Part shown: piece by piece, positions 10,130-54,303 of the stretch
How the letters are laid out: each line of letters starts with the position of its first letter
Position numbering within the stretch: position 1 is the first letter of the stretch
Virus record (IMG/VR): IMGVR_UViG_2061766007_000892
Strand: one strand, 5' to 3'
Length of the DNA stretch: 61,317 nucleotides
Origin: an uncultured virus (IMG/VR IMGVR_UViG_2061766007_000892)
Taxonomy: Duplodnaviria > Heunggongvirae > Uroviricota > Caudoviricetes
Notes under the pieces: model-generated
What the model saw: only the letters and a program-made list of their open reading frames with translations
What the model was told of the DNA's origin: nothing
Database searches by the model: none
Program-made: the position numbers and the translations under genes

Positions 10130-10729
10130 ATACCCTATTTAATAAAACCGTTGCGACCTTCGCCGTACTTGTATTATCCTTCTAACATATTCAGCTACGT
10201 TGAAGATGAAGGCTGAGCCAAAGGTAGCGACCCTTTAACTTCTTCACCCTGTCTTTCGACTACCAACGGAGAGATTGTCTACTCTCAAATTTCACTCAAA
10301 CCATTCAGCAAATTCTTCAATAATAAATCAAATATTTTCTATTTGTTCTAATACCAAGAACTTGTTGTCACTTTAAGCTACTTTTACCGCAAACCTCACT
10401 TATAGCCTATTTCTAGGTTTCAACGACAATAGCACCTTATTGGTCTTTCCTAGGTTTGATACAGTCACCAGCTAAACCCTAACTAGGATTCAGTCTACGC
10501 TTTTAACGCTTGACTTCTATTATGATGCCGTGAGGAATCGTGCTTTTGTTAGCGGATAACCAAGCGCCTACCCTTAACATTCGGAGTTTCTCCTTATCGC
10601 TAATCATTACTGATTTTGCGGCCACGATTTGGTAGTATCCCGCCAAACCGTATGGCTGTTGTTCAGGTAGCCCAAGCAGAGTGGTTAACTCTTCTTCACT
10701 TGGTTCAACCATTTTATTAAATAGGGTAT
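10130..10729 (-). ncRNA. large ornate ncRNA candidate (ROOL/GOLLD-like, ~600 nt)
   Basis: Terminal helix ATACCCTATTTAATAAAA/TTTTATTAAATAGGGTAT, many internal hairpins, own promoter, inside tRNA array. Confidence 0.65.
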
Positions 10730-10756: not shown

Positions 10757-10785
10757 ATTATAACATAATTTTCAGAAAAAGTCAA
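10757..10785 (-). promoter_or_regulatory. sigma-A promoter driving the large ncRNA
   Basis: TTGACT-17 nt-TATAAT with extended TG. Confidence 0.85.
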
Positions 10786-12484: not shown

Positions 12485-12610
12485 TGGTGCCGGCGAGTGG
12501 ATTCGAACCACCACTGAACAGATTTTAATGGTGGGCGATACGAGTGCTGCCCTCGCATAATGTCACTGGACATCGCTCGTCTGTTGCCTCTGCCGTTGGG
12601 CTACGCCGGC
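12485..12610 (-). tRNA. tRNA-Leu(TAA) interrupted by a 50-nt insert between C32 and U33
   Basis: Removing 12529-12578 gives a perfect 76-nt cloverleaf with ACAGA-CTTAAAA-TCTGT. Confidence 0.88.
12529..12578 (-). ncRNA. nested mini-tRNA (acceptor + T arm + ACCA) acting as intron
   Basis: GAGCGAT/ATCGCCC-ACCA; T arm GCGAG-GGCAGCA-CTCGT; small GTC-CAGT-GAC hairpin. Confidence 0.8.
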
Positions 12611-13031
12611 ATAAATGGCGATTTTTATCGTTGTTCGCCACAACCGTAGGCCATATGTCCTACTTCTAGGTGGACCAGGGTATTTCTACCAGCCCAATGT
12701 AAGTTTTCTTTTCTGGTTTGCGGTTACACTTACAACCCACAACAAGCTCCATTATCTACTCCATACCAGAAGAATAGTAATTTCATCGCTTATGCCGCGC
12801 ATCTTGTGCAGGGCTGCCGAATACGCTTTCACGTATTCTAAAACTCCTTGTACACTTGGTACATGAGATAGCGGTGCCGGCATTCTATTGGCCGCAATTT
12901 GTCTGCTTATACCGGCTAGTTNNNNNNNNNNNNNNNNNNNNNNNNNTCCAAGAAGAAGAAAATACAGTACGAGAAATCTTACGCACAATTATCATCCTTT
13001 CCTTGTTTCTATAACTATTATATCATAATTT

Positions 13032-14458: not shown

Positions 14459-15406
14459 TTATTCAACCGGAACATTTATATACTCTNNNNNNNNNNNNNN
14501 NNNNNNNNNNNNNNNNNNNNNNNNNNNNNNNNNNNNNNNNNNNNNNNNTTTTGGGTGAGTTTCTTTTAACTGCTGGAAACGATTAGGACATTTTTCTCTG
14601 TGGCATCCAAAACCACAAAAGATACATCCAGTTCTATTGATTCCTGTTGTAGTCCAATTACCCTTCTTATCTTTAATAATGTCACCGTATAGAGAGCAAT
14701 ATGGTACATCATATTTTACAAGATATTCAAAAATATCGTTGTCAGTCCAGAAAGATAATGGTTTACAAGTTGGTTTTTTACTATCAAATAAATTACAACC
14801 ACTACGCATCCATTCATTACGACGAGCAATAGATTCACACGCTAATGTACCCAATAATGGATAGCGTCCCGTTTCTTTTGAGTAATGATGGTTTGGTTGC
14901 TTTTTCATTACATCACAACAATAATCACTTACTTTAAATGGAGCATTTACAAGGAAATTCCATTTTCCGTCACCAAAACCAAAAATTTTACTATCATATT
15001 CTCCACTAAGGAACTTAGCACGAGCAGAATTAGGATTGCGTTTTGCGGTTGCTACATAGCCTGCGACTTTTTTACTTATTATTGGATACCCAAACTCTTC
15101 AATAACTTGTCTAAAAGTTTTCTTGGGACGAATAATTTCTATATTTTCATGTGATTTAACAAATTGTTTAACTTCTGGATACTCCAAACCTGTGTCCACA
15201 AATACCGCAGGAATATCCGGATATACTTTGCGGGCAAGATTTAGAAGTACTGTGCTGTCTTTTCCGCCGCTAAAGGCAACGAATAATTTTTCGTCATAAC
15301 GCATACCAAATTCAGTAATACGTGTCATTGTTACGCCAATCTTTTTATCAAGTGGCCATTGTTGCATTTCTTTTAAATCTGTGGCTGTAAACTTATTTTC
15401 TGCCAT
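14459..15406 (-). CDS. PAPS-reductase family (PP-loop) protein
   Basis: FSGGKDSTVL, DTGLEYPE, CCDVMKK, RTGCIFCGFG. Confidence 0.88.
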   Translation of the reverse strand: MAENKFTATDLKEMQQWPLDKKIGVTMTRITEFGMRYDEKLFVAFSGGKDSTVLLNLARKVYPDIPAVFVDTGLEYPEVKQFVKSHENIEIIRPKKTFRQVIEEFGYPIISKKVAGYVATAKRNPNSARAKFLSGEYDSKIFGFGDGKWNFLVNAPFKVSDYCCDVMKKQPNHHYSKETGRYPLLGTLACESIARRNEWMRSGCNLFDSKKPTCKPLSFWTDNDIFEYLVKYDVPYCSLYGDIIKDKKGNWTTTGINRTGCIFCGFGCHREKCPNRFQQLKETHPKXXXXXXXXXXXXXXXXXXXXXEYINVPVE

Positions 15407-15481
15407 AATTATACACCTCGCTTTATTTAAATAGGCCTGGGCCTACCTTTAATTTATATTATAGCAGAAATTAAAAAAAAG

Positions 15482-15769
15482 TCAAGTTTCTAACTCCTCA
15501 ACTTGACTTTCCATACTATTGATTTTCTTTTGATCTGAAATAGACCAGTTTTTGGATGGCTCCCATCCACGAGGCCCATTGTGTTTTTTATTATTAGTTT
15601 TAGCACTACACATAGGGCAGGAACAATGAATTTTATTATCAGCATATTGATGGAGATTGTTGTACATAGGCCACCATTTACCCGCGGAAACATCTCTATC
15701 AATATGATATTTGCGAAGTGCCTTAATCCAACTTTTCGCGCGAGTATACGCTCTATCGTGAATTGCCAT
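15482..15769 (-). CDS. hypothetical protein
   Basis: HCSCPMC plus motif shared with 13032..13436. Confidence 0.7.
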   Translation of the reverse strand: MAIHDRAYTRAKSWIKALRKYHIDRDVSAGKWWPMYNNLHQYADNKIHCSCPMCSAKTNNKKHNGPRGWEPSKNWSISDQKKINSMESQVEELET

Positions 15770-15969: not shown

Positions 15970-15974
15970 ATATC

Positions 15975-16770
15975 GCGGCTTTAAGCCAGCCGCACGGCTG
16001 ATCCGATTATGGCGATTACTCCGAGAAGTTCATCTACGGACACTTCCTCCCGAATCAATAAAAGGGCTAACAAGTGTATGCATCCACTGTTGTAACGGCT
16101 GAGCCCTGCTACCAACCGTGTGCTAGGCGACTATTTACGCTTCATATCGTTGCACAATTCCGCTGCTCCTCTTCACCCAAGAGCAGTATATGGTTCCCCT
16201 CTTAGCCTGAACCCTTCATGATTGGGGCCAGTTTCCAGCACCACCACGTGGAGGTTTGGGATATGATGCCATTGCCGCGCGTTTTTATAACCCAGACGCG
16301 AGACCACTCTACTGGGATCGCTCCTAACGACTTATATACTACATAAAAATCCGCGGAGTGGGTTAATTTGCAATGTGCCAGGCTTCCCACAATACCTGAT
16401 AGGATAGCAATCCATTTAGCCCGTTTGCCAGTTGGCGATTGGTTACGCTGCTCTCACAGCACATAGCAGTATTGGCTATGACAGGTCTTACTTTCGCTAA
16501 GGATGCGGGGCAATGACCTAAGGTCCCCATGCTCTCAAGGTAGCTATCCTTGAGAGGGAGCTATCTCCCGTCGAAGACCATATACGGGACCACTACCATC
16601 TTAGTCAGCGGCAACCATTGCCGCTGGGGGAATTGAACCCCACTGCCACGTATACTTTTCACTCCGTGATACTAATTTGGTTTTGCCTATTTATATTCCG
16701 CCGTTGAGACCATTTAGGTTAGTATCAATCACTCTTGCGGCCAGGATATTTTACAACGCCCGTTCGTTGG
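15975..16770 (-). ncRNA. ~800-nt GC-richer structured non-coding block
   Basis: No credible ORF; GGGCTAA/TTAGCCC brackets ~360 nt; CTCTCAAGG/CCTTGAGAG and GGGAG/CTCCC hairpins. Confidence 0.5.
16581..16654 (-). ncRNA. third permuted tRNA-like domain (no Y-like scaffold)
   Basis: TATACG..GGGG-TTCAATT-CCCC-CAGCGGCA-ATGGT-TGCCGCTG-ACTA-AGATGG-TAGT..CGTATA. Confidence 0.6.
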
Positions 16771-16910: not shown

Positions 16911-17128
16911 GTATTTTCATTTATGATTTCTAGAAGTTCTTCATCAGAAAGGACATCAAAACATTCATATATCTTTGCTTCAATTACATTGTCCTTTCCA
17001 AAATAATCATAAAGACGGTCTACATGATTGCCAATGGTGCCTTGAATAGATACAAGACCACGTTCATGCTTGCGCTCGTCAGTATCTTCGTCCCAATAAT
17101 CAATTTCATATCTTACCATATTATACAA
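16907..17128 (-). CDS. hypothetical protein
   Basis: 73-aa ORF coupled to RNA ligase. Confidence 0.6.
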   Translation of the reverse strand: MYNMVRYEIDYWDEDTDERKHERGLVSIQGTIGNHVDRLYDYFGKDNVIEAKIYECFDVLSDEELLEIINENT

Positions 17129-17750
17129 GCTCCTTCATATCTTCCCACTTGATTTTAACAATTACACGCTCACCACAGCGATTGCGCAATTCAATCATAG
17201 GACGACAAACGATGCCTTCCATTTCACGCTCTTCTTCTGCGATTACAGAATTGGGGTGGGTTTTTACATACTCTTCCGCGGCATATAGACTGCCAGTGCC
17301 AACAATAGGAACGGCTTTAATTCCAAACATCTTGGCAGTTTCCTCTACCCATTCGCGCGCCTGATAGTTATCACCAATAAGCACATCAAAGAGGATAAAA
17401 TCTACGCCATTGGAAATATACTTTCCGCCACCCTTCTGAATCTTGCGGCCATAACCTTCACCGAAAAGAATAACTTCTTTCTCACCGAAAGCCTGCTCAA
17501 AAATCTGAGCGTTAGTTTCACCGCCAAACAACTCGTTCAAACGAGTAACAAGTTCTGCGGGAATAGCGGCATTATCGGTGCGGCCGCCAAAGGTTACAGT
17601 ATGGCCATCCCAACATACACGGATATTGGTGCCATCAACCTTTTCAGTCCAAATCCAGTTATTATCGCTGAGATATTCTACAGTCGGGTCACGGAAAATA
17701 CCGGGANNNNNNNNNNNNNNNNNNNNNNNNNNNNNNNNNNNNNNNNNNAT
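17121..17750 (-). CDS. ATP-dependent RNA ligase (Rnl2-like adenylyltransferase domain)
   Basis: Frame extends upstream of ORF-track start: WTEKVDGTNIR (motif I), LFGEGYG (III), FILFDV (IIIa), EGIVCRP (IV), VKIK (V); start next to gap after GAAAGGA. Confidence 0.85.
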   Translation of the reverse strand, partial: XXXXXXXXXXXXXXXPGIFRDPTVEYLSDNNWIWTEKVDGTNIRVCWDGHTVTFGGRTDNAAIPAELVTRLNELFGGETNAQIFEQAFGEKEVILFGEGYGRKIQKGGGKYISNGVDFILFDVLIGDNYQAREWVEETAKMFGIKAVPIVGTGSLYAAEEYVKTHPNSVIAEEEREMEGIVCRPMIELRNRCGERVIVKIKWEDMKELV

Positions 17751-17778
17751 ATTTTATTCCTTTCTACTTACTATAATA

Positions 17779-17807
17779 ATTATATCAAAAATTATATGGT
17801 AAGTCAA
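17779..17807 (-). promoter_or_regulatory. sigma-A promoter for RNA ligase
   Basis: TTGACT-17-TATAAT. Confidence 0.8.
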
Positions 17808-17815
17808 ATATTTTA

Positions 17816-17974
17816 TCAATCTCCATAAGTACAATGATAACCAGAAAAATATGGGCATATTTTACAATGAAATTCAAACCAAGTATCTGCTTGCTCTCTT
17901 GACCACTCACCGCTTATTTCTTTTCGCCACATATCTTCATATCCATAACCGCAGTCTTCCCATACTTTTACCAT
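17816..17974 (-). CDS. small hypothetical protein
   Basis: MVKVWEDCG..., AGGAG RBS. Confidence 0.5.
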   Translation of the reverse strand: MVKVWEDCGYGYEDMWRKEISGEWSREQADTWFEFHCKICPYFSGYHCTYGD

Positions 17975-17975
17975 A

Positions 17976-18317
17976 CTAAATCTCCTTATATCCATAATGA
18001 GTAAGAAGTTGCCGCATATTTTCACGGCCGACTGGATTCATTGTATGAAGATGGAAACCTACAAGAGGAATATGATTTTCTACGATATACTTACAAATAT
18101 CATAACCAGATGGAGCAAGAGTGTCATCCATTTCATTACCTTCACCCAAATCGTGGTCAAGGTCTATAATTACATTGTTTATATCAGCCACACCCAACAT
18201 ATCAATGGTTTGCTGATAATCGCGGCAAATATAAGGAAGCCAATCATGACCAGCAAGATTTCGCTGATACCAAGTATCATCGTCACGAATATCATCTACA
18301 TAAATATAATAATTCAT
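17976..18317 (-). CDS. cyclic-phosphate-processing receiver-like (cREC) domain protein
   Basis: YVDDIR, IDLDHDLG, SGYDICKYI, HTMNPVGRENM. Confidence 0.75.
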   Translation of the reverse strand: MNYYIYVDDIRDDDTWYQRNLAGHDWLPYICRDYQQTIDMLGVADINNVIIDLDHDLGEGNEMDDTLAPSGYDICKYIVENHIPLVGFHLHTMNPVGRENMRQLLTHYGYKEI

Positions 18318-18520
18318 ATATCTATTCCAAACCAACTTTCTTCGCGCAGATAAGGACAGTTTTCAATATCACATTTTGGGACTTCAGGATTCATACGGCG
18401 CTTCTTCATGTCTGTTTCTTTACTTTTATAAAGTCTACATAGCCACCCATATTCGCAGCTATGATAGGAGAATAGACACTCACTTTTTTCTTTAGGTAAA
18501 CTCTCAACTATAATTCTCAT
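18314..18520 (-). CDS. hypothetical protein
   Basis: ORF with AGGAG RBS. Confidence 0.6.
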   Translation of the reverse strand: MRIIVESLPKEKSECLFSYHSCEYGWLCRLYKSKETDMKKRRMNPEVPKCDIENCPYLREESWFGIDI

Positions 18521-18531
18521 ATTTACTCCTT

Positions 18532-18789
18532 TTAAAATGCTATAATAAATTCTTNNNNNNNNNNNNNNNNNNNNNNNNNNNNNNNNNNNNNNNNNAATTC
18601 TTGATTGTCAGGAATATAAATGTGAACATAATCTCCTTCTCCATCAAAATCAATTCTTATGGCATCTAGCATTTCAATGCCATCTTTTTCTGGATTAGTA
18701 GAACCTGCTGCGATACAACATTCAATACAAGTGGGAATGCCTTCTAACACTGGTACCATACGTCCAATATCACCAAAGTACTTTGCCAT
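18532..18789 (-). CDS. hypothetical protein
   Basis: ORF with own promoter and RBS. Confidence 0.55.
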   Translation of the reverse strand: MAKYFGDIGRMVPVLEGIPTCIECCIAAGSTNPEKDGIEMLDAIRIDFDGEGDYVHIYIPDNQEXXXXXXXXXXXXXXXEFIIAF

Positions 18790-18866
18790 AATTTTATTTC
18801 CTTTCCTTTTCTATAAATATTATACTACAAATTTCATTTTTAGTCAAGAAAAAAGAAGATGAATTT

Positions 18867-19778
18867 TCATTCATCTTCTTCTTTCACTAAATATTCATCA
18901 CTAAATAACATTTCAAGAGTAATATTATCACGTTCCCAATATGGAATGCGAACGAGAGGAATGTTGTGAGAGAGGGCGTATTGATTTTTTTCTTTATCTG
19001 TATAAAGTTGTTGTTTGTATTTCTCTTCAGTGTTCCAACCACTTGTAAAATAATAGTGTTGTTCTCCGTCAAACTCAATTAAGCGAATTATATTATTATC
19101 TTTGTTTAATATAGCAAAATCATATTTATAATTTTTGTTATTTATATTTACTGAATANNNNNNNNNNNNNNNNNNNNNNNNTAAATTAATGTTCATATTG
19201 CCTATAGATCTAATACAACCACAAGATTTAGTATTTCCATTTATAAGATGGCTTCCTTCTATATCACATTCATTGCCGCAATCACACTTACAATGCCACA
19301 TAGAATGACCTCTAGAATCATTTTCAATACGATATAATACTATTAATTTATTAAAACGTTTTCCTTCTAATTCTAATGGCGTAATATTATATTTTTTAAT
19401 ATGCTTTGTTAATAAACATCCACAAGATTTAACTTGTCCTCGTTGTAAATCAATTCCTCTCACACTCGTAGTATTACCACATTCACATTGACAAATCCAA
19501 TAATTATTTTTTCTAATATTATCTTTTTCTAAAACTGTAAGCTTATTAAATTTTTGGCCCGTTAAATCTTTAATATTACTTTGGGATGCTCGCTCTTTTT
19601 GATAGCATCCACAAGATTTAGTTCGGCCATTTCTTAAATGTTCACCTTTTATAATACATGTGTTTCCACATTCGCAAATACAGGGCCAATACCAACTTTT
19701 ATTTCGTTTTTCTGGAACCGCATTTTCTAGAACAGTTAATCTATTCCATTTGGTTCCACGCATATCAATTCCTTTCAT
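18867..19778 (-). CDS. homing-type endonuclease: three G.KFN.LTV/W.C.C.CG/SCGC repeats plus Vsr/DUF559-like nuclease
   Basis: Repeats followed by YDFA...IEFDGEQH...LVRIPYW. Confidence 0.8.
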   Translation of the reverse strand: MKGIDMRGTKWNRLTVLENAVPEKRNKSWYWPCICECGNTCIIKGEHLRNGRTKSCGCYQKERASQSNIKDLTGQKFNKLTVLEKDNIRKNNYWICQCECGNTTSVRGIDLQRGQVKSCGCLLTKHIKKYNITPLELEGKRFNKLIVLYRIENDSRGHSMWHCKCDCGNECDIEGSHLINGNTKSCGCIRSIGNMNINLXXXXXXXXYSVNINNKNYKYDFAILNKDNNIIRLIEFDGEQHYYFTSGWNTEEKYKQQLYTDKEKNQYALSHNIPLVRIPYWERDNITLEMLFSDEYLVKEEDE

Positions 19779-19813
19779 TTTATCACCCTAAAAAGTGAGA
19801 TGAATTAATCATC

Positions 19814-21331
19814 TCACTTAATATTCTTATATCTCTCACTATTTAATTTATCCATCATAAGTGAGTATCCCGATTTTCCAGACATGACCATTTCAAAGAT
19901 TACTGGAGAACACCCAGATACATTTGTAACGTCAGGACCCACATCTAGAATAGTGGAATTTTTAGCATTTACGTTCCAGAAAATTAAGGAAGGCATTTTA
20001 TAACCATTCTGTGCGAACTTTTCTCGCATTTTATCCATAAACGTAAAAGTATTACCATTATGAGAATAATAGCCCTGTGCTGCATCCACTTGCATATCTG
20101 AAATTACCACAATACTTTCTGGCATATCTGTCTGAGTAAGATGGTAATTACGTGCAGTTCTCAAGACTAATTCAAATACGTCTTGAAAATTGGTATTCTC
20201 GCAAAGATTCGTCTTTACGATACGATCAACCTTATCGCAGAAATCTACTCCATGAGTCTCAATAAACTTCGCCGTGCGGCTGAAGCTGATATAAGAATTC
20301 GCGAAAGGCCCTTTATTACGCTCTGCGGCATAAAGAGCAAGAGAAACTGCGACATCAATGGGAGCAACGCTACCAGCGCCTGAACACATACTTCCGCTTG
20401 TATCGGCGACAACAAGGGCATTTAGGGACATGCCATGGAAGTAATCAGTTAGATTCTCCCAATACTTGTTAATCATCAGACGGTCGGTGTTGTCAAGGGC
20501 GACATTACTGCCACGGCCATACCAGCTATAGTCTGAGCCCATAAGCTTAATGGCCTTAGCAACCACATCATAAGGATATAGTGCGGCTGCATTAACCTTG
20601 GTAGAGGTATTCTTAGCAAACGCTTCATACTTCGCCTTGATTAGATCACGGCGAGCAAAGGCGTTCTTATAAATCAGGCCAGCACGAGAAGGAATCTTGT
20701 CAAATTCAATCTCATTCCACCGATTTGCAGACATAAGACGCTCTAGCACACGAATACGCTCACGAAGGTTAGAAAGCAGTACACGGTACTGACGAGAAGT
20801 TAGGCCCATGGTGTGGGCAGTTAGACGTCCATAACGCTTAGTCTTGGCAGAAGAAGCGTTCTCGGAAGCCGCCCACTTACCGGCAAGGGAAATAGCACCC
20901 TTGGTCTTGTAATCAAGGGCAAGCTGCTTGCCAAGAGCATAGAGAGCCTCATGCTCGCAGGAAGTCCCTACGAGAGCGTATAGGTCATCCCAGCGGCCAT
21001 ACTCGGCAATCTGGTCAAGATTGCGCAGTACGGCATTGCGGTCATAATCCGCAAGCCAATGCAGACAAGTGCGGAAAAAACGACGCTCGCCCTGTCCGCC
21101 GCGAATGTCACGAATATAGAATAGGCACTTTAGGGCATACATAGGACTCTCCTGATATGCCTCCTTGAATAGAAGCACGCAGTCGCTCTCGGTGCGCTGA
21201 CGATAAGCCGCACCGAAAGAGAATAGGTCGTATAGCTTAGAGCTAGTCGTGGTGCGCGCGACAGCACCATTCTCGGTGGTCTTGTAGGTGTTCTGAGAAG
21301 CCATAGCATTGTAAAGACGATTCATAGACAT
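19814..21331 (-). CDS. TROVE-like/vWA protein (DUF2828, Ro60-related)
   Basis: TENGA, RDIRGGQGER, EYGRWDDL, LAGKW, MIDAS DTSGSM, ISDMQ, FWNVN, VSGCSP. Confidence 0.85.
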   Translation of the reverse strand: MSMNRLYNAMASQNTYKTTENGAVARTTTSSKLYDLFSFGAAYRQRTESDCVLLFKEAYQESPMYALKCLFYIRDIRGGQGERRFFRTCLHWLADYDRNAVLRNLDQIAEYGRWDDLYALVGTSCEHEALYALGKQLALDYKTKGAISLAGKWAASENASSAKTKRYGRLTAHTMGLTSRQYRVLLSNLRERIRVLERLMSANRWNEIEFDKIPSRAGLIYKNAFARRDLIKAKYEAFAKNTSTKVNAAALYPYDVVAKAIKLMGSDYSWYGRGSNVALDNTDRLMINKYWENLTDYFHGMSLNALVVADTSGSMCSGAGSVAPIDVAVSLALYAAERNKGPFANSYISFSRTAKFIETHGVDFCDKVDRIVKTNLCENTNFQDVFELVLRTARNYHLTQTDMPESIVVISDMQVDAAQGYYSHNGNTFTFMDKMREKFAQNGYKMPSLIFWNVNAKNSTILDVGPDVTNVSGCSPVIFEMVMSGKSGYSLMMDKLNSERYKNIK

Positions 21332-21395
21332 AATTTATTTTCTCCTTTTCATTTGGTCAGCCCTGGACTAGGGCTCGTTTCTTTCTTACAATATT

Positions 21396-21424
21396 ATTAT
21401 AGCAGAATTTTGAGTAAAAGTCAA
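21396..21424 (-). promoter_or_regulatory. sigma-A promoter for TROVE-like gene
   Basis: TTGACT-17-TATAAT. Confidence 0.8.
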
Positions 21425-21425
21425 A

Positions 21426-21623
21426 TTATTTGTGATAGAATTTCCACATTCGTTTCTTTAAATGATTTAATTCACGCGAGGTAGCCAAATTTACAATTTC
21501 TGATTTCACTATTGTATCTGATGATATGATAGGAGCAGAATTTATCATTTCTTTCAACTCTTCATTAGTAATATCAGGAAGTTCTTCTGTCTTTTTCTTT
21601 CCAAAAATAAACGGTAGTCCCAT
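21426..21623 (-). CDS. hypothetical protein
   Basis: 65-aa ORF with RBS. Confidence 0.55.
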   Translation of the reverse strand: MGLPFIFGKKKTEELPDITNEELKEMINSAPIISSDTIVKSEIVNLATSRELNHLKKRMWKFYHK

Positions 21624-21632
21624 ATTTTCTCC

Positions 21633-22176
21633 TTATAGCATAGCAATACATTCGTTTGCTTTTGCTTCAATATCTGAAATAATTTCATCAAAGGATACTG
21701 GCGCATTGTTATGTGCGTCAAGTGCTACATTATACATAAAAGGAATGTCTTGATAAAACTTATTTTTTGAATGAGTATGGCCATGAAGATTTATTAGATG
21801 TTGCTTCAAAGGTGCCATATTTTCAAGATAGGAAGTCATAGTTGGATAGTGGGAAAGATAGAAATTAAAACCATTTATCTTTTGAACCGCGGCCCAACTA
21901 GTATGAAAATCACCACTTAAAGGAATCATATTAGTATTCTTATATAATTCACAACGGCTATCAGTGCAATGATTTCCGCGAATATAATAAATTTTTCCTT
22001 GGAGTTGATTTAATAATTTTATACCGCCTTCATTATTGTTTAACATTAAATCTCCTAATAGATAAATAGTGTCGGTATTTTTAATAGATTTATTCCAATT
22101 TTGTATGATAATNNNNNNNNNNNNNNNNNNNNNNNNNNNNNNNNNNNNNNNNNNNNNNNNNNNNCCAAATTGTCAT
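21633..22176 (-). CDS. calcineurin-like metallophosphoesterase (gap in N-terminus)
   Basis: MTIW..(gap)..QNWNKSI..IYLLGDL, RGNH, LSHYP, LHGHTH. Confidence 0.8.
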
Positions 22177-22807
22177 CAGGTTCTATCTCCTTCCAATGAT
22201 AGTTATATGCTTTTTCTGTTATTCCATTTAAGCATCTTCTAATATTACCATTAGTTTTTTTATTAAAATATTTGTCAATATCACGCATTCTTTTAAAAAT
22301 TAAATTTTTCTCCACTAATAAAATCCAATTAGTATGCTTTGTTCTCGTTTTACTCTTTTTTAATTTAGAATAATCTATATTTTTAGAAGTTAATGCTGTA
22401 TAAACTACTTGGTCATAGATTTTAAAATATGTACATGTATCTTTTATTGAGTTATTATGAGAAAGAAAATAATCAACAATTATATCATAATCATATTTTT
22501 GATGGCCAAAGCCTCCCAATGAGGCATTATACCCATTCTTATAACTATCATAATATTCAATCCAATATTTTTCTCTTTCATTTAATAGTTCATTAGGACA
22601 TTCTTCTATTAAAGTAATAATAAAATTATCTTTACCATATAATCTTATAGCATTATGTAATGGTAAATGATAGTCTTTATGAAATTGTGTAGTTGCTGCT
22701 CTTACATGATCGTCCCAACGAGTACTAATTGCTCTAATTGTTTGACCAATATAAACAGTTCCATTTATTTTATTTTCAACTTTGTAAATTCTACCCATAA
22801 TAATCAC
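22165..22807 (-). CDS. GIY-YIG homing endonuclease (stop in gap)
   Basis: GRIYKVEN..VYIGQT..RW..H, LNEREKYWI, GYN. Confidence 0.88.
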
Positions 22808-23001
22808 TCCATAACTGCAAAAAGTTCTTTTGCTATTTCTTTTAGGGTGAGATTTAATAATTCTTCATTTTTATGAGTAATACCTTTTTGCCCTTTTACC
22901 CATTTAGTTAATGTAGAAGCATCTACATTCATTCGTTTTGAGATATAAGCTATTGATACTCCTCGTTCAGAAAAATAAATAAGTTTTTCTTTTACTGTCA
23001 T
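22804..23001 (-). CDS. XRE-type helix-turn-helix protein
   Basis: SIAYISKRMNVDASTLTKWVKG. Confidence 0.7.
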   Translation of the reverse strand: MTVKEKLIYFSERGVSIAYISKRMNVDASTLTKWVKGQKGITHKNEELLNLTLKEIAKELFAVME

Positions 23002-23079
23002 ATTCTCACTCCTTTCATATTATAAGTGATTATTCTGCCAGAAAAAACAGATTTTTTCTCCCAGAAAAAAAGATTTTTG

Positions 23080-23265
23080 CTAATTTTCTTTTCCTTTCGG
23101 CTCAATATAGGTATCCCAAATATATTGTAAAACTTTTTGTTGTGCTCCTTTACAACCATATTTCATACGATAAATAACATCTATTGGAGCCTTTCCAAAG
23201 AAAACACGATAAGCATAATCATATACATCTTTCATCGCGTCATATAGATTATCATCCCAAATCAA
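23080..23265 (-). CDS. hypothetical protein
   Basis: ORF track. Confidence 0.5.
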   Translation of the reverse strand: MIWDDNLYDAMKDVYDYAYRVFFGKAPIDVIYRMKYGCKGAQQKVLQYIWDTYIEPKGKEN

Positions 23266-23814
23266 TTAAAAAGCCTCCCATCCCACGACTTCACAAACAC
23301 CACCAAGTTCCTTGCACCTATCATACCACTTTGCGCCGGCCTCACGAATTGCCTTTGCCTTGCACTGATTACAAAAGCAATCACAAGTGGTGCCCAATCC
23401 AGTAGGATAAAAAGTGTATGAGAAGCCGCCGCCAGATGCTCCATGATAACCTTCTGGATTAGAATGAACTTCTGAATCATGCTTGCGTTGCCAATCATAG
23501 GAGCGGTTTCGTTCTTCTTCAGTCAGTGGAAAACCATAGCTTCGTTCACGAATCGCACGTTCCATTTTTAGCTTCATTTCCATGAGTTCATTGTCTTTCC
23601 ACTTTTCATCATAGATTTCATTGAAGCGCTTCTGTAGACGATTATTATCATTTTCCAATGACAAAAGTGTTTTCCTTAAATCTTCAATTTTAGCTTCAAT
23701 AGCATTTATATCGCGCGAATGAAAAAAATTACGAATAATATTATCTACTTCTGACTCTGGAATATGAATATCTTCTGCTTTAATTTCAAGAGAACCATCG
23801 TTATGTGTTATCAT
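23266..23814 (-). CDS. hypothetical protein
   Basis: Start MITHND after AAGGAG; GASGGGFSYTFYPTGLG motif. Confidence 0.65.
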   Translation of the reverse strand: MITHNDGSLEIKAEDIHIPESEVDNIIRNFFHSRDINAIEAKIEDLRKTLLSLENDNNRLQKRFNEIYDEKWKDNELMEMKLKMERAIRERSYGFPLTEEERNRSYDWQRKHDSEVHSNPEGYHGASGGGFSYTFYPTGLGTTCDCFCNQCKAKAIREAGAKWYDRCKELGGVCEVVGWEAF

Positions 23815-23951
23815 TTTCTTTCTCCTTTTCCAATACCGCAACCAAATCAGGAAAAAGTTCTTCAAATTTTTCACCATCTGATTCAGTCATTGTTAGTCGT
23901 ATTCCATAATTTTCCATCACAAATCTTATAAAATCGTGTGCTAGTTGTTTA

Positions 23952-24413
23952 TTATTCATGTTCCTCCATGATTTTTGCTGTATTGAGCAATATCTGTGTC
24001 AATTGATTACTAATACCAAAGCGTTTGGCATTAATTTCTATGCTTTTTAAAAGATTTCCATTATTATGACGTTCACTTGAAGCCTTCCAGTCAGCCATCA
24101 GTTCTACTAAATCAATCAAGTTCATATCATTAATGCCATTAGGGAAATGCTCTGGATGATGGCGATAAGTAGCATAATGATGTTCTAATGCTGGTTTTAA
24201 ATCTTCTAATGCTTGTTTATACTCATTAGAACCATATTCTAATGTAGCTAATTGTTCAGTATGTTCTGCGAACAATTCTACTTCTGGGCTTTCAAGTTTT
24301 GCCGCGTCATGCTCTACTCCACGGGTTGTCAATTTATCAGTAAAAAAGCGGATATACTTACGCACCTTTTCTATGTGCTTTTGAGTTTCCACTCTGCATT
24401 TATCAAGTGTCAT
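23952..24413 (-). CDS. HD-like (DUF5662-type) protein
   Basis: HI..V, HDAAK, HHY...HHPEHF, ELMADW. Confidence 0.7.
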   Translation of the reverse strand: MTLDKCRVETQKHIEKVRKYIRFFTDKLTTRGVEHDAAKLESPEVELFAEHTEQLATLEYGSNEYKQALEDLKPALEHHYATYRHHPEHFPNGINDMNLIDLVELMADWKASSERHNNGNLLKSIEINAKRFGISNQLTQILLNTAKIMEEHE

Positions 24414-24468
24414 ATTTCTTCCTCCTTGTAATTATATTATACTATAATTTCCACTAGAAGTCAAATAG

Positions 24469-24494
24469 AAAAAACGCACGGTTTCCCGTGCGTT
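24469..24494 (-). terminator. intrinsic terminator
   Basis: AACGCACGG-GAAA-CCGTGCGTT followed by T run. Confidence 0.75.
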
Positions 24495-24507
24495 ATAAGT
24501 ATTTATA

Positions 24508-25482
24508 TTAATTCGTAGTTTCAGTAGTTTCGCCCATATTTAAGATGGGAATAGTGGAACTGCCGCCAACAAATTGTGGAAGTTCTCCATTCCAACGCTG
24601 GACTTGACGATAATTTACAAGTTCTTCAGTTAGAGACTTATTAATTTTTTCATTGGCTTCTGCTTCTGCGGCAGCCTTAACTTGTGTAGAATATGCGTCT
24701 GCATCTGCTTGCACCTTAGCTACTTCTGCCGCGGCTTCTGCTTCAATCTTCTTACGCTTTGCAGCCTGTTCTGCTTCCATAGTAGCTTGTTCCTGCTGGG
24801 TCTGAGCACGCTGCTTTTCTTGTGTAGCAACTTGCTTGGCTTCTACGGCATTAGTAAAAGCGTCTGTAAAATCAATATTTTCAATAGATACAGAAATGAT
24901 ATTAATGCCTTGTGGTTCCAAATCTCCCTTTAATGAATCATAAATTTCATTTGATAGTCGTTGTCTATGAGAAATTAGACCTTCTGCTGTATATTTAGCA
25001 AAGGTAGCCTTTAGTACTTCTTGTGCACGAGGAGCGATTAAAATACTATCGTACTTTGTGCCGACTTCCTTATAAAGGCGCATAGCAGTGGTCTTATCAA
25101 TAGAATAATTAATAGAACCTGTTACTTGTACTTCCTGAATATCCGCAGAAAATGCTTCCATTTGGAACTGAGCACGTTGTTCACGATTATCCATTTCAAT
25201 TACTCGTACAAAGGGTGACTTAAAATGTAATCCCGCTTCATAAGTATAGTCTTGAACTTGATTAAATTTAGTTACAATTCCAGTATAACCTGTATGGACT
25301 GTTGCTATACAAGACGAGGCCACACATAAAACTGCAAGTATTACACTAATAATGCGTAGCAATGTTCGTTGTGAAGCGTGACTTACTTTGTCACCGTTTC
25401 TCTTTGCTCTGTCCTTGAATACTGTTGAAGCTACGACAAAACCAACTACAAGAACAACTAAACCAAAAAAAATACCTACCAT
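24508..25482 (-). CDS. SPFH/prohibitin family membrane protein
   Basis: Two TM helices, GLHFKSPF, AVEAKQVA, coiled coil, WNGELP. Confidence 0.9.
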   Translation of the reverse strand: MVGIFFGLVVLVVGFVVASTVFKDRAKRNGDKVSHASQRTLLRIISVILAVLCVASSCIATVHTGYTGIVTKFNQVQDYTYEAGLHFKSPFVRVIEMDNREQRAQFQMEAFSADIQEVQVTGSINYSIDKTTAMRLYKEVGTKYDSILIAPRAQEVLKATFAKYTAEGLISHRQRLSNEIYDSLKGDLEPQGINIISVSIENIDFTDAFTNAVEAKQVATQEKQRAQTQQEQATMEAEQAAKRKKIEAEAAAEVAKVQADADAYSTQVKAAAEAEANEKINKSLTEELVNYRQVQRWNGELPQFVGGSSTIPILNMGETTETTN

Positions 25483-25511
25483 TTTTCTTTTCTCCTTTAA
25501 CTCATTTTTAT

Positions 25512-25587
25512 TGGAGCGTCCTAGCGGTGCTGCCCCGCTTAACAATGGTTTTGCAGACCACGCCGTTTGCTGATTCGGTAAGGACGC
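25512..25587 (-). tRNA. tRNA-Cys(GCA), atypical T loop GGCAGCA
   Basis: GTGGT-CTGCAAA-ACCAT; AGCGG-GGCAGCA-CCGCT; U73-CCA. Confidence 0.88.
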
Positions 25588-25844: not shown

Positions 25845-25928
25845 TGGTCGATCCCCTGGGACTCGAACCCAGGACACACGGCTNNNNNNNNNNNNNNNNN
25901 NNNNNNNNNNNNNNNNNNNNNNNGATCG
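25845..25928 (-). tRNA. tRNA, anticodon in gap
   Basis: CGATC.../CTGGG-TTCGAGT-CCCAG-GGGATCG-ACCA. Confidence 0.8.
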
Positions 25929-25929
25929 G

Positions 25930-26372
25930 TATAAATCTCGCGGTTTCTTCTCCTATCGGCATCTTCCGGGCCTCAATCCATCCGAGCCTCCACTTGATTT
26001 CGCCGCGAGGGACATTGTAAAGGAGTAAACATTCGCGTTATGTATACTCCAAGAAACATTTGTGTATCATTTGCTCTTATTGGTAGATACTCTCCATCCG
26101 AGACCTCACCGCCTATTATTCACGCACGGACTCGTGGCCACCACTAACGAGGACGACTTCCGCTAGACTTCGCAGATTTTCTGCTACTAATTTAACGATA
26201 AATCTAGTTACCGAGCGAATCTTGTGTGTATTCCGGACTACCTTGACGGGGCAAGAGAACTCCCGGCATTTATATACTGTAAATACATAGTATAAGCTCT
26301 ACTATTCTCATACTATTAGCTGCAACAGGCCCTTTTCCCTTTCGCGATTAAGGAGGATTACAGGGTGAACCT
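25930..26372 (-). ncRNA. ORF-free structured spacer RNA(s)
   Basis: CTCGCGG/CCGCGAG, CTAGA/TCTAG, CTCGT/ACGAG stems. Confidence 0.4.
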
Positions 26373-48762: not shown

Positions 48763-49059
48763 TTACGCACCTCCAGATTCTGTTAAATCTACAAGTTCAA
48801 CAGTGCTATCTGTGAAAACAGCGTTAGCTGGGACATTAGTGAGCACTGTATATCCTGTAATTGTATTAGCGTCAATAAACGGTAAATCCGAAACTTTAGT
48901 GTCTCCATCACCCACTTTTAAACGAGAAAAAGGGTGAGTACCATCAGCTGAATATATGATGATCTCACCCTCTTTTGGCTTAAAGTTTGTAGCTTTATTC
49001 CAATTAGCTTCAGTATCATTTTTCAACTGAATTCTCGTTTTTACGGTATTTACTGCCAT
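48763..49059 (-). CDS. Mtd/hyaluronidase N-terminal-like tail protein
   Basis: RIQLKNDTEANW...GEI...KVGDG..V.DLPF. Confidence 0.7.
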   Translation of the reverse strand: MAVNTVKTRIQLKNDTEANWNKATNFKPKEGEIIIYSADGTHPFSRLKVGDGDTKVSDLPFIDANTITGYTVLTNVPANAVFTDSTVELVDLTESGGA

Positions 49060-53368: not shown

Positions 53369-54303
53369 TTATGCTGTACCGCCATTAAGAATAAATTCAT
53401 CACCATTTGGAACATATAATTTTGTGGTTGAAACACGATTAAGTGACATAATACCAGTGATAGAATCAACAGAAACACTATTATCAGCATTGCTAGAGTA
53501 TACGCCACCTAAAACTGAAGTAGTTGCGATATTTAATTTTCCAATTTCACTCGCGGCGATACCACTATCAACTAGGCTACCGTCCGCGGCAACACTTACT
53601 AAATTGCCTGCGGCTTGAACTGTTGGCTTTTGGACATAATTTGTTAAATCAACTGATGTGTCACCAATTTGAGTAAGTGTTCCATCAATTAGAATATACT
53701 CTTTATATTTATCTGCCCCAGTAACGGTATCATCTTTTATCATGTATATAGTATTAGATTCAATACCAACTGAAGGCAAAGTCGTAACTATGCGACGCTT
53801 TAAATGATCTGCATTAGCAATTGCACTTGCTACTGTAGTATCAACATAATTTTTAGTAGAAGCTTCACTATTGGCTAGTGGGTCGCGAGCAAGAGTAACT
53901 AAAACGCCATCTAAAGTGCCCTGCATAGGATTATAAGTAGCCTTNNNNNNNNNNNNNNNNNATTCTTTACTTCTAATTCTACTTTAGTTGGCCATTTTGT
54001 TAAATCTGTTTCATTAACTTGAACTTCTTCAAGGCTGTTTTCATCATAATACCAATAACTTTTACCATAATCTGCAACTGTGATTTTATTATCAACTAAT
54101 GTAGTTAATACGCCATCTACATCATTATGTGCATTAATATAGTCTAATTCATTAAAATTAGTAACCCCATCACCGACTTTAACTAAACCAGTATCTATTT
54201 CAATACCGACTTCACCACGAGCCAATTTAGGATTTTTAGTTGCCCATGTTGCGGCGGAATCATTACGGATAATAAGGGTTGCTCTTACATTATTTTGTGC
54301 CAT
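53369..54303 (-). CDS. tail fibre-associated protein (gap-broken)
   Basis: RNDSAATW..NP.LARGE.GIE.DT..KVGDG; ASTKNYVD. Confidence 0.7.

What the first reader, a model, noticed from the sequence alone, without database searches (positions are those of the whole stretch)
17121..22176. Heal-and-seal RNA repair cluster embedded in the tRNA array
Seen: an Rnl2-like ligase (all five motifs, own promoter), a receiver-like protein with DD/DHDLG/H.xN motifs, a TROVE/vWA protein and a calcineurin-like phosphoesterase within 5 kb, with an HD-like protein at 23952. Established: cREC-type receiver domains, metallophosphoesterases and HD domains have been proposed to remove 2',3'-cyclic phosphates for ATP-dependent ligases, and T4 Pnk/Rnl1 repairs PrrC-cut tRNA. 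Inference: this is the protein half of the system, serving both anticodon repair and splicing of the two interrupted tRNAs.
Basis: partly seen in the sequence, partly recalled or inferred. Interest (0 to 1): 0.78.

Follow-up and report, generated by a model that had tools for sequence, protein, structure and literature searches.

The report
Phage RNA repair cluster, tRNA-like introns
A large gut or rumen phage carries, inside its tRNA gene array, a set of genes for mending broken RNA, and some of its tRNA genes are interrupted by small tRNA-shaped inserts that this RNA ligase may help remove.

Summary
On the minus strand of 17121-25545 lie:
- a stand-alone RNA-ligase adenylyltransferase (PF09414)
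- a cREC receiver-type phosphoesterase (PF20274)
- a Ro60/TROVE+vWA protein (DUF2828/DUF7788; fold match to Ro60)
- a calcineurin-type phosphoesterase
- an HD-like DUF5662 protein
- an SPFH/Band-7 protein

Most sit behind their own TTGACT-N17-TATAAT promoters, with homing endonucleases between them. The gene order is kept in close relatives. A distant 188-kb phage has kinase, phosphoesterase, DUF2828, RlaP-like, DUF5662, ligase and SPFH together.

This matches the phage RNA-repair systems that Aravind's group predicted by computation, so the cluster is a new member of a known but biochemically untested kind.

- The ligase is only an Rnl2/Rnl5-like catalytic domain.
- The cluster has no 5' kinase. 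Complete relatives encode a kinase-HD fusion about 59 kb away.

New here: the interrupted tRNAs hold inserts shaped like tRNA minihelices (7-bp stem, T-arm-like hairpin, A-CCA end). Removing exactly that element restores a normal anticodon loop. The outer tRNAs keep all their pairs through compensatory changes. This suggests excision by tRNA end-processing enzymes and direct sealing by the ligase. That step is inferred, not shown.

The parts
17121..17790 (-). Stand-alone RNA ligase adenylyltransferase domain (about 216 aa in relatives). The start codon is under the mask 17707-17748.
   Evidence: PF09414 E 7e-17; phrog_548 RNA ligase; aligned to T4 Rnl2 motifs I-V; full length read in relatives; at least 7931 related clusters, with the top 120 almost all 213-224 aa.
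17779..17807 (-). Sigma-70-type promoter (TTGACT-N17-TATAAT with TG extension) in front of the ligase.
   Evidence: conserved in L009 and L001.
17816..18025 (-). Small Cys/His-rich protein overlapping the end of cREC. Its likely ATG is at 17974.
   Evidence: ORF list; the L009 homologue has a weak CCCH zinc-finger hit, E 0.0036; present in 4 relatives.
17976..18335 (-). cREC (cyclic-phosphate-processing receiver domain) protein. Its likely ATG is at 18317.
   Evidence: PF20274 E 1.4e-17; phrog_1479. Only 51-66% identical in most relatives, while the ligase is 91-95% identical.
18819..18847 (-). Promoter in front of the 85-aa and 68-aa ORFs, cREC and the small Cys/His protein.
18867..19778 (-). 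HNH-type homing endonuclease inserted between DUF2828 and the cREC unit. It is a passenger, not a repair component.
   Evidence: phrog_374 E 9e-56; present or absent, and divergent, among relatives.
19814..21331 (-). Ro60-like protein: TROVE-type helical ring plus a vWA domain with a MIDAS motif (DUF2828 + DUF7788).
   Evidence: Pfam; phrog_850 'RNA-binding protein' E 2e-117; AlphaFold model; Foldseek hits 9kop, 2i91, 2nvo and 9l5y (a phage Ro60) at E 6e-8 to 5e-5.
21396..21424 (-). Promoter in front of the Ro60-like gene.
21633..22176 (-). Calcineurin-type metallophosphoesterase. Its N-terminus is under the mask 22113-22164.
   Evidence: phrog_547 E 5.5e-23; frame extension; full-length relative with all motifs, Pfam Metallophos E 5.9e-7; weak YfcE similarity.
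22055..22807 (-). GIY-YIG homing endonuclease just upstream of the phosphoesterase. It is a passenger; L009 has an HNH endonuclease at the same spot.
   Evidence: PF01541 E 3e-8, phrog_314; L009 comparison.
23952..24413 (-). DUF5662 protein, probably an HD-superfamily phosphohydrolase.
   Evidence: PF18907 E 7e-31; invariant H35-D36, H78-H79, H85-H86, D101 and D108; top 7 VIA-align rows are HD enzymes, Z 5.0-7.8; it sits between the RlaP-like gene and the ligase in distant phage G005.
24436..24464 (-). Promoter in front of DUF5662 and the genes that run down to the phosphoesterase.
24508..25545 (-). SPFH/Band-7 membrane-scaffold protein at the upstream edge of the cluster.
   Evidence: PF01145 E 4.6e-30; kept next to the cluster in relatives; found near the ligase in G005.
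12485..12610 (-). tRNA(UAA) gene interrupted between loop positions 32 and 33 by a 50-nt minihelix-like insert that ends in A-CCA.
   Evidence: ARAGORN with introns; Rfam tRNA 40.9 bits over 123 nt; rule solver.
25845..25930 (-). 3' half of a tRNA-Ile(UAU)-type gene that is interrupted in relatives. The rest lies under the mask 25884-25923, so the insert cannot be checked in the window.
   Evidence: Sequence read matches the 3' exon of L004:3008-3156; mask length differs from relatives.

Best explanation
This is a phage RNA end-healing and sealing module, transcribed from host-type promoters that look early (the timing is inferred from the consensus only).

Proposed roles:
- The 216-aa adenylyltransferase is the ATP-dependent sealing enzyme. 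It joins a 3'-OH to a 5'-phosphate.
- cREC, the calcineurin-type phosphoesterase and the HD-like DUF5662 protein are the end-healing phosphoesterases. They would open 2',3'-cyclic phosphates and remove 2'/3'-phosphates.
- The Ro60-like TROVE/vWA protein and the SPFH protein are RNA-binding and scaffolding parts.
- The 5'-kinase step comes from a kinase-HD fusion encoded elsewhere in the genome.

The likely substrates are tRNAs, both the phage's own large set and the host's, after cleavage in the anticodon loop by host defence nucleases.

Shown here: gene identities, folds, promoters, conserved synteny and co-occurrence.
Inferred: every catalytic activity, the substrates and the order of the steps.
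For: Domains and folds:
- Domain hits.
- Ligase motifs aligned to T4 Rnl2.
- Ro60 fold: 12 of the 13 Foldseek hits at E<=0.001.
- HD-like fold and conserved HD dyad.

Synteny in close relatives:
- The order DUF5662 ... MPE, DUF2828, cREC, ligase is kept in 5 of the 7 relatives whose locus spans it.
- L002 and L010 lack only the MPE hit.

Synteny in a distant phage: G005 has, within 9 kb, a methyltransferase, AAA_33 kinase, Metallophos_2, DUF2828, an RlaP-like gene, DUF5662, an OB+ligase and SPFH.

Kinase:
- An AAA_33 match over the cut-off, in open frames of 294-327 aa, in 3 of 3 complete close relatives.
- Pfam on two of them shows AAA_33 plus HD.
- The kinase part resembles bacterial Pnkp, E 6.6e-10.

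Promoters: 11 TTGACT-N16-18-TATAAT sites against 0.09 expected, four of them in front of cluster units.

Published predictions of the same syntax: PMC7824862 and PMC9503650 (passages read).
Against: - No enzyme of this cluster has been assayed. PMC9503650 states that cREC is experimentally uncharacterized.
- The ligase lacks the accessory domains that Rnl2 and Rnl5 need for nick sealing (recalled biochemistry; the architecture is). It may need a partner or act on another substrate.
- The window has no kinase.
- cREC is missing from 2 of 5 complete genomes with the same ligase-DUF2828 pairing.
- MPE is missing from the cluster in L002 and L010.
- Two relatives also have a T4 Rnl1-type ligase about 6 kb from the kinase-HD gene. 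That ligase could be the true anticodon-repair ligase and leave this one for another task.
- The nearest folds to DUF5662 are cyclic-dinucleotide phosphodiesterases.
Confidence: 0.6

Rival explanations
1. Splicing of tRNA-like introns. This can hold alongside the repair reading.

The inserts in the phage tRNAs are tRNA minihelices. The host tRNA end-processing enzymes would cut them out: RNase P at the 5' end of the insert, and an RNase Z-type cut right after its CCA. That leaves a 3'-OH and a 5'-phosphate in the outer anticodon loop. The PF09414 ligase would then seal the loop directly, with no healing step. The ligase would therefore control the supply of several A/U-codon tRNAs.
For: The structural rule:
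- 14 of 15 interrupted tRNAs fit it. The insert is a 7-nt strand that pairs at 6 or more of 7 positions with the 7 nt before N-CCA at the insert's end, and removing it leaves a 7-nt loop closed by a 5-bp stem. Shuffled controls gave 35 of 3000.
- There are 11 different stem sequences with matching partners.
- In four complete genomes, 7 of the 7 non-spurious ARAGORN intron calls fit.
- 10 of the 11 pattern hits in IMG/VR are such tRNA-Leu genes, and all 10 inserts end in ACCA.

The outer tRNAs stay functional:
- The spliced forms are called as normal tRNAs in 14 of 14 cases.
- Among 6 distinct interrupted tRNA-Leu genes (identity down to 57%), 0 of 120 pair cells are broken and 15 of 20 pairs show compensatory double changes.
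- Sibling genomes have uninterrupted copies at the same places.

Ligase co-occurrence:
- 5 of 5 complete genomes with such inserts have a PF09414 ligase.
- Rnl1 is present in only 2 of 5.
- RtcB is absent in 0 of 3 searched.
- The archaeal splicing endonuclease is absent in 0 of 5.

Lak megaphages: they have 'enigmatic' tRNA introns, one of which may encode a tRNA (PMC6784885, passages and one supplement row read). They also hold a homologue of this ligase.
Against: - No RNA evidence. Only contig-level runs were available, and they listed no exon-exon joint.
- No ligase-free control genomes were examined, and RNA ligases are common in large phages (PMC7824862).
- A precise cut directly after CCA is not a standard bacterial reaction. 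It is recalled for Thermotoga RNase Z only.
- L006 has ACAA in place of ACCA.
- Rnl2-type enzymes prefer duplex nicks, not loops (recalled).
- In more distant cREC-bearing phages, 0 of 12 ARAGORN intron calls fit the rule, so the link is specific to this lineage.
Confidence: 0.3
2. Signal-degrading counter-defence. cREC, the metallophosphoesterase and the HD-like protein would destroy cyclic-nucleotide or ADP-ribose-derived immune messengers rather than heal RNA ends. The ligase and the Ro60-like protein would then be functionally separate neighbours.
For: - Iyer et al. propose that cRec may process cADPr or 1''-2'' cyclic ADPr phosphate.
- The best structural neighbours of DUF5662 are HD-GYP, PgpH and V-cGAP cyclic-dinucleotide phosphodiesterases.
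- NAD-salvage genes lie near the ligase in G006, and a PRPP-synthetase-like gene lies at 60062-61003 in the window.
Against: - DUF5662 and the MPE travel with the kinase, an RlaP-like gene, DUF2828 and the ligase in a distant phage. That is the syntax of RNA repair.
- The Z scores of 5.0-7.8 are middling.
Confidence: 0.1
3. Maturation or quality control of the phage's own large structured RNAs. Candidates are ROOL at 10135-10727, drum, and the 800-nt ORF-free block at 15970-16770. The Ro60-like protein would bind them, and the ligase would join or circularise them.
For: - ROOL (334 bits) and drum RNA lie in the same array.
- ROOL is kept in relatives.
- Ro60 proteins bind structured or misfolded RNAs (titles of the matching PDB entries).
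- The ROOL bin has by far the highest depth in two RNA libraries.
Against: - No Y-RNA or other partner was found by Rfam.
- The depth comes from contigs and cannot rank expression (note).
- Nothing links the ligase to these RNAs.
Confidence: 0.07
4. The ligase acts on DNA (nick repair or replication), and its place in the tRNA array is incidental.
For: The nucleotidyltransferase fold is shared with DNA ligases. The protein has no RNA-specific accessory domain.
Against: - It matches only RNA-ligase models (PF09414, TIGR02307, TIGR02306, phrog_548).
- It is constantly linked to DUF2828, and to a kinase and phosphoesterases.
Confidence: 0.03

Closest known systems
Phage and bacterial RNA-repair systems predicted by comparative genomics: Burroughs & Aravind 2016 (NAR 44:8525; not held, recalled and cited through PMC7824862); Iyer et al. 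2021 (PMC7824862) and 2022 (PMC9503650), passages read
   Same: The same syntax: an ATP-dependent ligase, phosphoesterases (cRec, calcineurin-like, HD), a kinase, a ROT/TROVE scaffold and an SPFH/Band-7 scaffold. The genes are encoded by large phages rich in tRNA genes.
   Different: The ligase here is a bare catalytic domain. The kinase is fused to HD and lies far from the cluster. DUF5662 is a regular member. I could not check whether it was listed in the 2016 paper. None of these systems has been tested at the bench.
T4 Pnkp + Rnl1 repair of PrrC-cut tRNA-Lys (recalled textbook case)
   Same: A phage heals and seals anticodon-loop breaks. The pathway needs a kinase, a phosphatase and an ATP-dependent ligase.
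   Different: The window's ligase is not Rnl1. An Rnl1-type gene exists in only 2 of 5 complete relatives, and outside the cluster. The phosphatases here are cREC, MPE and HD types rather than the HAD type. A Ro60-like protein is present.
T4 Rnl2 (PDB 1s68, 2hvq) and Deinococcus/Naegleria Rnl5 (DRB0094 family)
   Same: The closest solved and curated relatives of the ligase. Motifs I, III, IIIa, IV and V align.
   Different: The window's ligase has no Rnl2 C-terminal domain and no Rnl5 N-terminal OB domain. Its scores are far below the family cut-offs (28.6 against 197; 25.2 against 151). The distant phages G005 and G006 do have the OB+ligase form.
Ro60/Rsr with Y RNA, including Ro60 of Thermus phage phiLo (PDB 9l5y)
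   Same: The same two-domain fold, TROVE ring plus vWA with MIDAS.
   Different: 10-14% sequence identity. It is filed in Pfam as DUF2828/DUF7788, not TROVE. No Y RNA was found nearby.
Clostridium thermocellum Pnkp/Hen1 (recalled)
   Same: Kinase, calcineurin-type phosphoesterase and ligase chemistry. In G005 a methyltransferase, a kinase and an MPE are adjacent.
   Different: Here these are separate genes, not one polypeptide. Whether the G005 methyltransferase is Hen1-like was not tested.
tRNA introns of Lak megaphages (Devoto et al. 2019, PMC6784885)
   Same: Phage tRNA genes with short, conserved inserts in the anticodon loop that are present in some genomes and absent in others. One insert was noted as a possible tRNA. 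Lak genomes hold a homologue of this ligase.
   Different: The one Lak intron row that I saw has extra 5' sequence and no CCA. The paper proposes no excision rule or mechanism and does not mention an RNA ligase (0 occurrences).

Membership tests
Rnl2 (T4 Rnl2 family) | Nucleotidyltransferase motifs I, III, IIIa, IV and V with the lysine nucleophile | tested here: met
   The alignment to 1s68/2hvq covers EKVDGTN, FGE, FILFDV, EGVVCRP and VKIKW; PF09414 E 7e-17.
Rnl2 (T4 Rnl2 family) | C-terminal domain of about 90 aa, and a score above the family's curated cut-off | tested here: not met
   216 aa in total; TIGR02307 28.6 bits against a cut-off of 197.15; relatives are 213-224 aa.
Rnl5 (DraRnl/NgrRnl, DRB0094) | N-terminal OB domain fused to the ligase domain | tested here: not met
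   No OB domain; TIGR02306 25.2 bits against a cut-off of 151. The feature is met in G005 and G006: PHA02142 OB + RNA_ligase, TIGR02306 E 4e-31.
cREC (PF20274) | Profile match above the gathering score, with the receiver-type acidic residues | tested here: met
   64.5 bits against a cut-off of 27, profile positions 2-87 of 88. The DD and DLDHD motifs are read.
cREC (PF20274) | Cyclic-phosphate phosphoesterase activity | not testable with these tools
   The activity is predicted only. It is stated to be uncharacterized in PMC9503650.
Ro60/TROVE + vWA | TROVE helical ring followed by a vWA domain with a MIDAS motif | tested here: met
   Foldseek hits over about 510-580 alignment columns to 9kop, 2i91, 2nvo, 9l5y and 1yvp. 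D310, S312 and S314 are invariant.
Ro60/TROVE + vWA | Cognate Y RNA encoded nearby | tested here: inconclusive
   No Y-RNA family at E<=0.5 in 5000-29000. Unassigned structured RNA is present at 15970-16770.
Calcineurin-like metallophosphoesterase | Motifs DxH, GD, GNH(D/E), H and GHxH | tested here: met
   GD, GNH, H and GHTH are visible in the window. DxH is masked there but present in L009:5820-6398, which passes Pfam Metallophos.
HD phosphohydrolase superfamily (for DUF5662) | HD dyad with further His/Asp metal ligands on an all-helical fold | tested here: inconclusive
   HD, HH, HH and D are invariant. The top 7 VIA rows are HD enzymes, but Z is 5.0-7.8. Foldseek found nothing at E<=0.001.
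T4-type Pnkp/Rnl1 tRNA repair | 5'-OH polynucleotide kinase together with an Rnl1-type ligase | tested here: not met
   Neither is in the window. In relatives there is a kinase-HD fusion in 3 of 3 complete close genomes. Rnl1 is in 2 of 5.
Archaeal/eukaryal-type tRNA splicing | Splicing endonuclease (PF01974) and RtcB | tested here: not met
   PF01974 in 0 of 5 complete genomes. RtcB in 0 of 3.
Group I self-splicing tRNA introns | Intron of 200 nt or more that matches the group I model | tested here: not met
   The inserts are 44-77 nt. Rfam gave no group I hit in the window or in 5 loci.

The most novel reading that the evidence does not exclude
The 'enigmatic' short introns of large gut and rumen phage tRNAs are tRNA minihelices, and in some genomes whole suppressor tRNAs, nested in the anticodon loop of another tRNA.

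Proposed pathway:
1. The cell's own tRNA end-processing enzymes (RNase P, plus a cut after CCA) release the nested element.
2. The phage's stand-alone PF09414 ligase rejoins the two halves of the outer tRNA without any healing step.

This would be a third, protein-dependent route of tRNA splicing in the bacterial world. It would let a phage make two RNAs from one gene, and it would make its supply of Leu(UAA), Ile(UAU), Glu(UUC), Asn(GUU) and Lys(UUU) tRNAs depend on its own ligase.
Probability: 0.3. Interest if true: 0.85.

Novelty: new member of a known kind. Interest (0 to 1): 0.58.

Why it matters
The cluster is a compact natural example of an RNA-repair system that so far exists only as a computational prediction. 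It holds cREC, a Ro60-like protein, an HD-like DUF, an SPFH protein and a minimal ligase. Each sits behind its own promoter. The three families I searched (ligase, Ro60-like, DUF5662) each have thousands of homologue clusters in metagenomes. That makes it a good system for first biochemical tests of cREC and of a ligase reduced to its catalytic domain.

The tRNA-shaped inserts follow a strict excision rule, and the outer tRNAs are clearly kept functional. This turns the unexplained phage tRNA introns reported in 2019 into a testable mechanism with a named candidate ligase.

Tried and rejected
- Megablast of the 5-kb region against GenBank phages: no match.
- No whole genome is held for the window.
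- Rfam: no group I intron, no Y RNA and no ribozyme in the window or in 5 related loci.
- PDB sequence search: nothing for DUF2828, and only chance-level rows for DUF5662.
- Sequencing runs:
  - Only contig-level RNA and DNA runs hold relatives, at 5-26% of the words.
  - Laying them gave no listed joint across the 12485-12610 insert, and they cannot show transcript ends. No verdict on splicing or expression.
  - RNA-library contigs do cover the Ro60-like gene and ROOL, but DNA carry-over cannot be excluded.
- The first DNA pattern was too strict and found 1 contig. The relaxed pattern found 11.
- ARAGORN intron calls in 35 more distant cREC-bearing loci: 0 of 12 fit the minihelix rule, so the rule is not general to all phages.
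- RlaP is absent from G001-G003.
- Burroughs & Aravind 2016 could not be read. The RlaP preprint holds none of the terms I searched.
- Literature searches for nested tRNA, tRNA-like introns, or RNase P plus ligase in phages found only Devoto 2019.
- The 73-aa ORF downstream of the ligase was considered as a trans-acting partner and dropped. It is missing in L003 and only 38-50% identical where the ligase is over 90% identical.
- No complex prediction was run.

Full report
**What the window is.**
- All long ORFs are on the minus strand and G+C is 36%.
- The window holds 20 uninterrupted tRNA genes, tail and lysis genes, a ROOL RNA and a drum RNA.
- No genome is held for it, and megablast finds no GenBank phage.
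- IMG/VR holds close relatives whose ligase is 76-95% identical. Among them are complete genomes of 169-184 kb with terminal repeats. The window is therefore part of a phage of about 170-185 kb.
- Many stretches are masked, and the masks do not keep their true length (for example 42 N where relatives have 61-67 nt). Frames across masks cannot be trusted.

**The observation.**
- *Ligase, 17121 to about 17790.* It matches Pfam RNA_ligase (E 7e-17). It aligns to the T4 Rnl2 catalytic domain through motifs I, III, IIIa, IV and V. Its start is masked, and relatives give a 216-aa protein.
- *cREC, 17976-18335.* It is a full-length cREC domain (E 1.4e-17).
- *TROVE/vWA protein, 19814-21331.* It is DUF2828+DUF7788. 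An AlphaFold model (pLDDT 80) matches Ro60/TROVE structures in 12 of the 13 Foldseek hits at E<=0.001, including a phage Ro60. The MIDAS residues are invariant.
- *Phosphoesterase, 21633 to about 22176.* It continues into the mask 22113-22164. A 193-aa relative shows all five metallophosphoesterase motifs.
- *DUF5662, 23952-24413.* It keeps an HD dyad and two His pairs. Its model is closest to HD phosphohydrolases in the top 7 VIA-align rows, but Z is only 5.0-7.8.
- *SPFH/Band-7, 24508-25545.* This gene is an added member at the upstream edge of the cluster.
- *Homing endonucleases.* An HNH and a GIY-YIG endonuclease sit between the repair genes. They differ between relatives.

**Transcription.** The window has 11 TTGACT-N16-18-TATAAT sites, all on the minus strand, against 0.09 expected. 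Four of them precede the cluster's units:
- 24436: DUF5662 down to the phosphoesterase
- 21396: the Ro60-like gene
- 18819: the small ORFs and cREC
- 17779: the ligase

Others precede ROOL and tRNA blocks.

**Conservation.**
- In 5 of the 7 related loci that span the region, the order is DUF5662, MPE, DUF2828, cREC, ligase. L002 and L010 lack only the MPE hit.
- The ligase is 91-95% identical and DUF2828 77-90% identical across the closest relatives. cREC is only 51-66% identical, except in one locus.
- Two distant complete phages, G005 and G006, were found through a tRNA insert and not through these proteins. They pair DUF2828 with an OB+ligase of the DRB0094 type.
- In G005 the neighbourhood reads methyltransferase, AAA_33 kinase, Metallophos_2, DUF2828, RlaP-like, DUF5662, ligase, SPFH. 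That is the syntax of a heal-and-seal system.
- cREC is absent from G005 and G006.

**The missing kinase.**
- An ATP-dependent ligase needs a 5'-phosphate, and no kinase lies in the window.
- The three complete close relatives each have an AAA_33 match in an open frame of 294-327 aa, about 59 kb from the cluster.
- Pfam on two of them shows an AAA_33 kinase fused to an HD domain. The kinase part resembles bacterial Pnkp.
- By position the gene would lie just outside the window.
- Two of five complete genomes also have a T4 Rnl1-type ligase near that kinase.
- RtcB and RlaP are absent from G001-G003.

**Comparison with the literature.**
- Iyer et al. defined cRec, predicted that it opens cyclic phosphates, and reported its operonic linkage to RNA ligases. 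They also list ROT/TROVE proteins, kinases and calcineurin-like enzymes in phage RNA repair, and they state that cREC is uncharacterized (PMC7824862 and PMC9503650, passages read).
- The founding survey, Burroughs & Aravind 2016, is not held. I recall that it names Rot/TROVE and SPFH/Band-7 modules as scaffolds.
- The cluster is therefore a new member of a predicted kind. It has a ligase reduced to its catalytic domain, a form found in at least 7931 database clusters, nearly all of 213-224 aa among the top 120.

**The interrupted tRNAs.**
- ARAGORN with introns, and Rfam, find a tRNA(UAA) with a 50-nt insert at 12485-12610.
- The second interrupted tRNA is mostly masked. Only its 3' half, at 25845-25883, can be read. 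It matches the 3' exon of an interrupted tRNA-Ile(UAU) in relatives.
- Across relatives the inserts follow one rule. The insert begins with a 7-nt strand that pairs with the 7 nt lying before A-CCA at its end. It holds a hairpin with a 7-nt loop directly before that 3' strand. Deleting exactly this element leaves a 7-nt anticodon loop closed by 5 bp.
- 14 of 15 cases fit the rule, against 35 of 3000 shuffles, with 11 different stems.
- 7 of the 7 non-spurious intron calls in four complete genomes fit.
- 10 of the 11 IMG/VR pattern hits are such tRNA-Leu genes.
- The outer tRNAs are Leu(UAA), Ile(UAU), Glu(UUC), Asn(GUU) and Lys(UUU).
- In L002 and L010 the insert is a complete cloverleaf tRNA with a CUA anticodon.
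- Sibling genomes carry uninterrupted copies at the same places.
- The outer genes remain under selection. The spliced forms are normal tRNAs in 14 of 14 cases. Six distinct interrupted tRNA-Leu genes, down to 57% identity, keep all 20 pairs (0 of 120 cells broken), with compensatory changes at 15 pairs.
- The inserts are therefore real introns, removed at the RNA level.

**Mechanistic inference.**
- An acceptor/T-arm minihelix followed by RCCA is the classic minimal substrate of bacterial RNase P (recalled).
- RNase P leaves a 3'-OH on the upstream piece. A hydrolytic cut just after CCA would leave a 5'-phosphate on the downstream piece. Such a cut is recalled for Thermotoga RNase Z.
- Those are the ends that an ATP-dependent ligase joins without healing.
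- Ligase distribution fits this. PF09414 is in 5 of 5 complete genomes with such inserts. Rnl1 is in 2 of 5. RtcB is in 0 of 3. The archaeal splicing endonuclease is in 0 of 5.
- I did not examine ligase-free controls. The available runs are contigs only and show no joint. The cut after CCA is unproven.
- Devoto et al. 2019 reported 'enigmatic' introns in Lak phage tRNAs, one possibly a tRNA, and did not mention a ligase. Lak genomes hold a homologue of this ligase.
- My searches found nothing further in print.

**Verdict.**
- Most likely the cluster is a phage RNA heal-and-seal module of the predicted kind (0.6).
- A direct splicing role of the ligase for tRNA-like introns is the most novel reading that the evidence allows (0.3).

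Noticed in passing
window 10135-10727 (-): A full-length ROOL RNA (334 bits) behind its own TTGACT-N17-TATAAT promoter at 10757-10785. It is kept in relatives. Its bin has by far the highest contig depth in two sheep-gut RNA libraries.
   Followed up: partly
window 12696-12791 (-) and 12649-12696 (-): A drum RNA (54 bits, above the gathering score) and, next to it, a sub-threshold DUF3800-XI RNA match (34.1 bits against 37.8). Both lie just upstream of the interrupted tRNA.
   Followed up: no
window 15970-16770 (-): An 800-nt ORF-free, G+C-rich block between tRNA-Met and tRNA-Glu, with a T-arm-like GGGGTTCAATTCCCC. In relatives it is a mosaic of conserved blocks of 40-120 nt. It matches no Rfam family. 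It could be the RNA partner of the Ro60-like protein.
   Followed up: partly
L002:5224-5375 and L010:3978-4130: The insert in tRNA-Ile(UAU) is itself a complete tRNA with a CUA (amber-reading) anticodon. It is a suppressor tRNA nested inside another tRNA. The window's long ORFs read normally under code 11.
   Followed up: partly
L010:17976-18401: This tRNA-Leu(UAA) has a 349-nt insert in the anticodon loop. That is the size of a group I intron, but Rfam does not call it one at the gathering score.
   Followed up: no
window 12485-12610 compared with L001:14101-14234 and L063:158-293: Homologous minihelix inserts sit at different positions of the same anticodon loop (32/33, 34/35, 35/36). This suggests repeated insertion or sliding.
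   Followed up: partly
window 22055-22807 and L009:5002-5823: Different free-standing homing endonucleases occupy the same slot upstream of the phosphoesterase: GIY-YIG in the window, HNH in L009. Both are preceded by an identical 65-aa HTH protein.
   Followed up: partly
L009:9960-10010: The closest relative's ligase has a 1-nt gap near its 5' end, which shifts the frame. It is either a sequencing error or a broken gene.
   Followed up: no
L081:15-1493 (G006): A protein with major-vault-protein shoulder and repeat domains lies about 3 kb from the Ro60-like gene. This echoes the eukaryotic vault, which combines MVP with a TROVE protein (recalled).
   Followed up: no
L080:2039-2821 (G005): A methyltransferase lies directly upstream of the kinase and phosphoesterase genes. 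It could be a Hen1-like 2'-O-methylase of repaired ends.
   Followed up: no
window 60062-61003 (-) and L081:9806-12887: NAD-related genes lie near the repair genes: a ribose-phosphate pyrophosphokinase-like gene in the window, and NAMPT and NAD synthase in G006.
   Followed up: no
window 14459-15406 (-): A PAPS-reductase-like (PP-loop) gene sits within the tRNA array, behind its own promoter at 15458-15485.
   Followed up: no
window 48766-49059 and 53914-54303 (-): Two proteins carry the N-terminal domain of the major tropism determinant (Mtd_N). This hints at diversity-generating or variable receptor-binding proteins.
   Followed up: no
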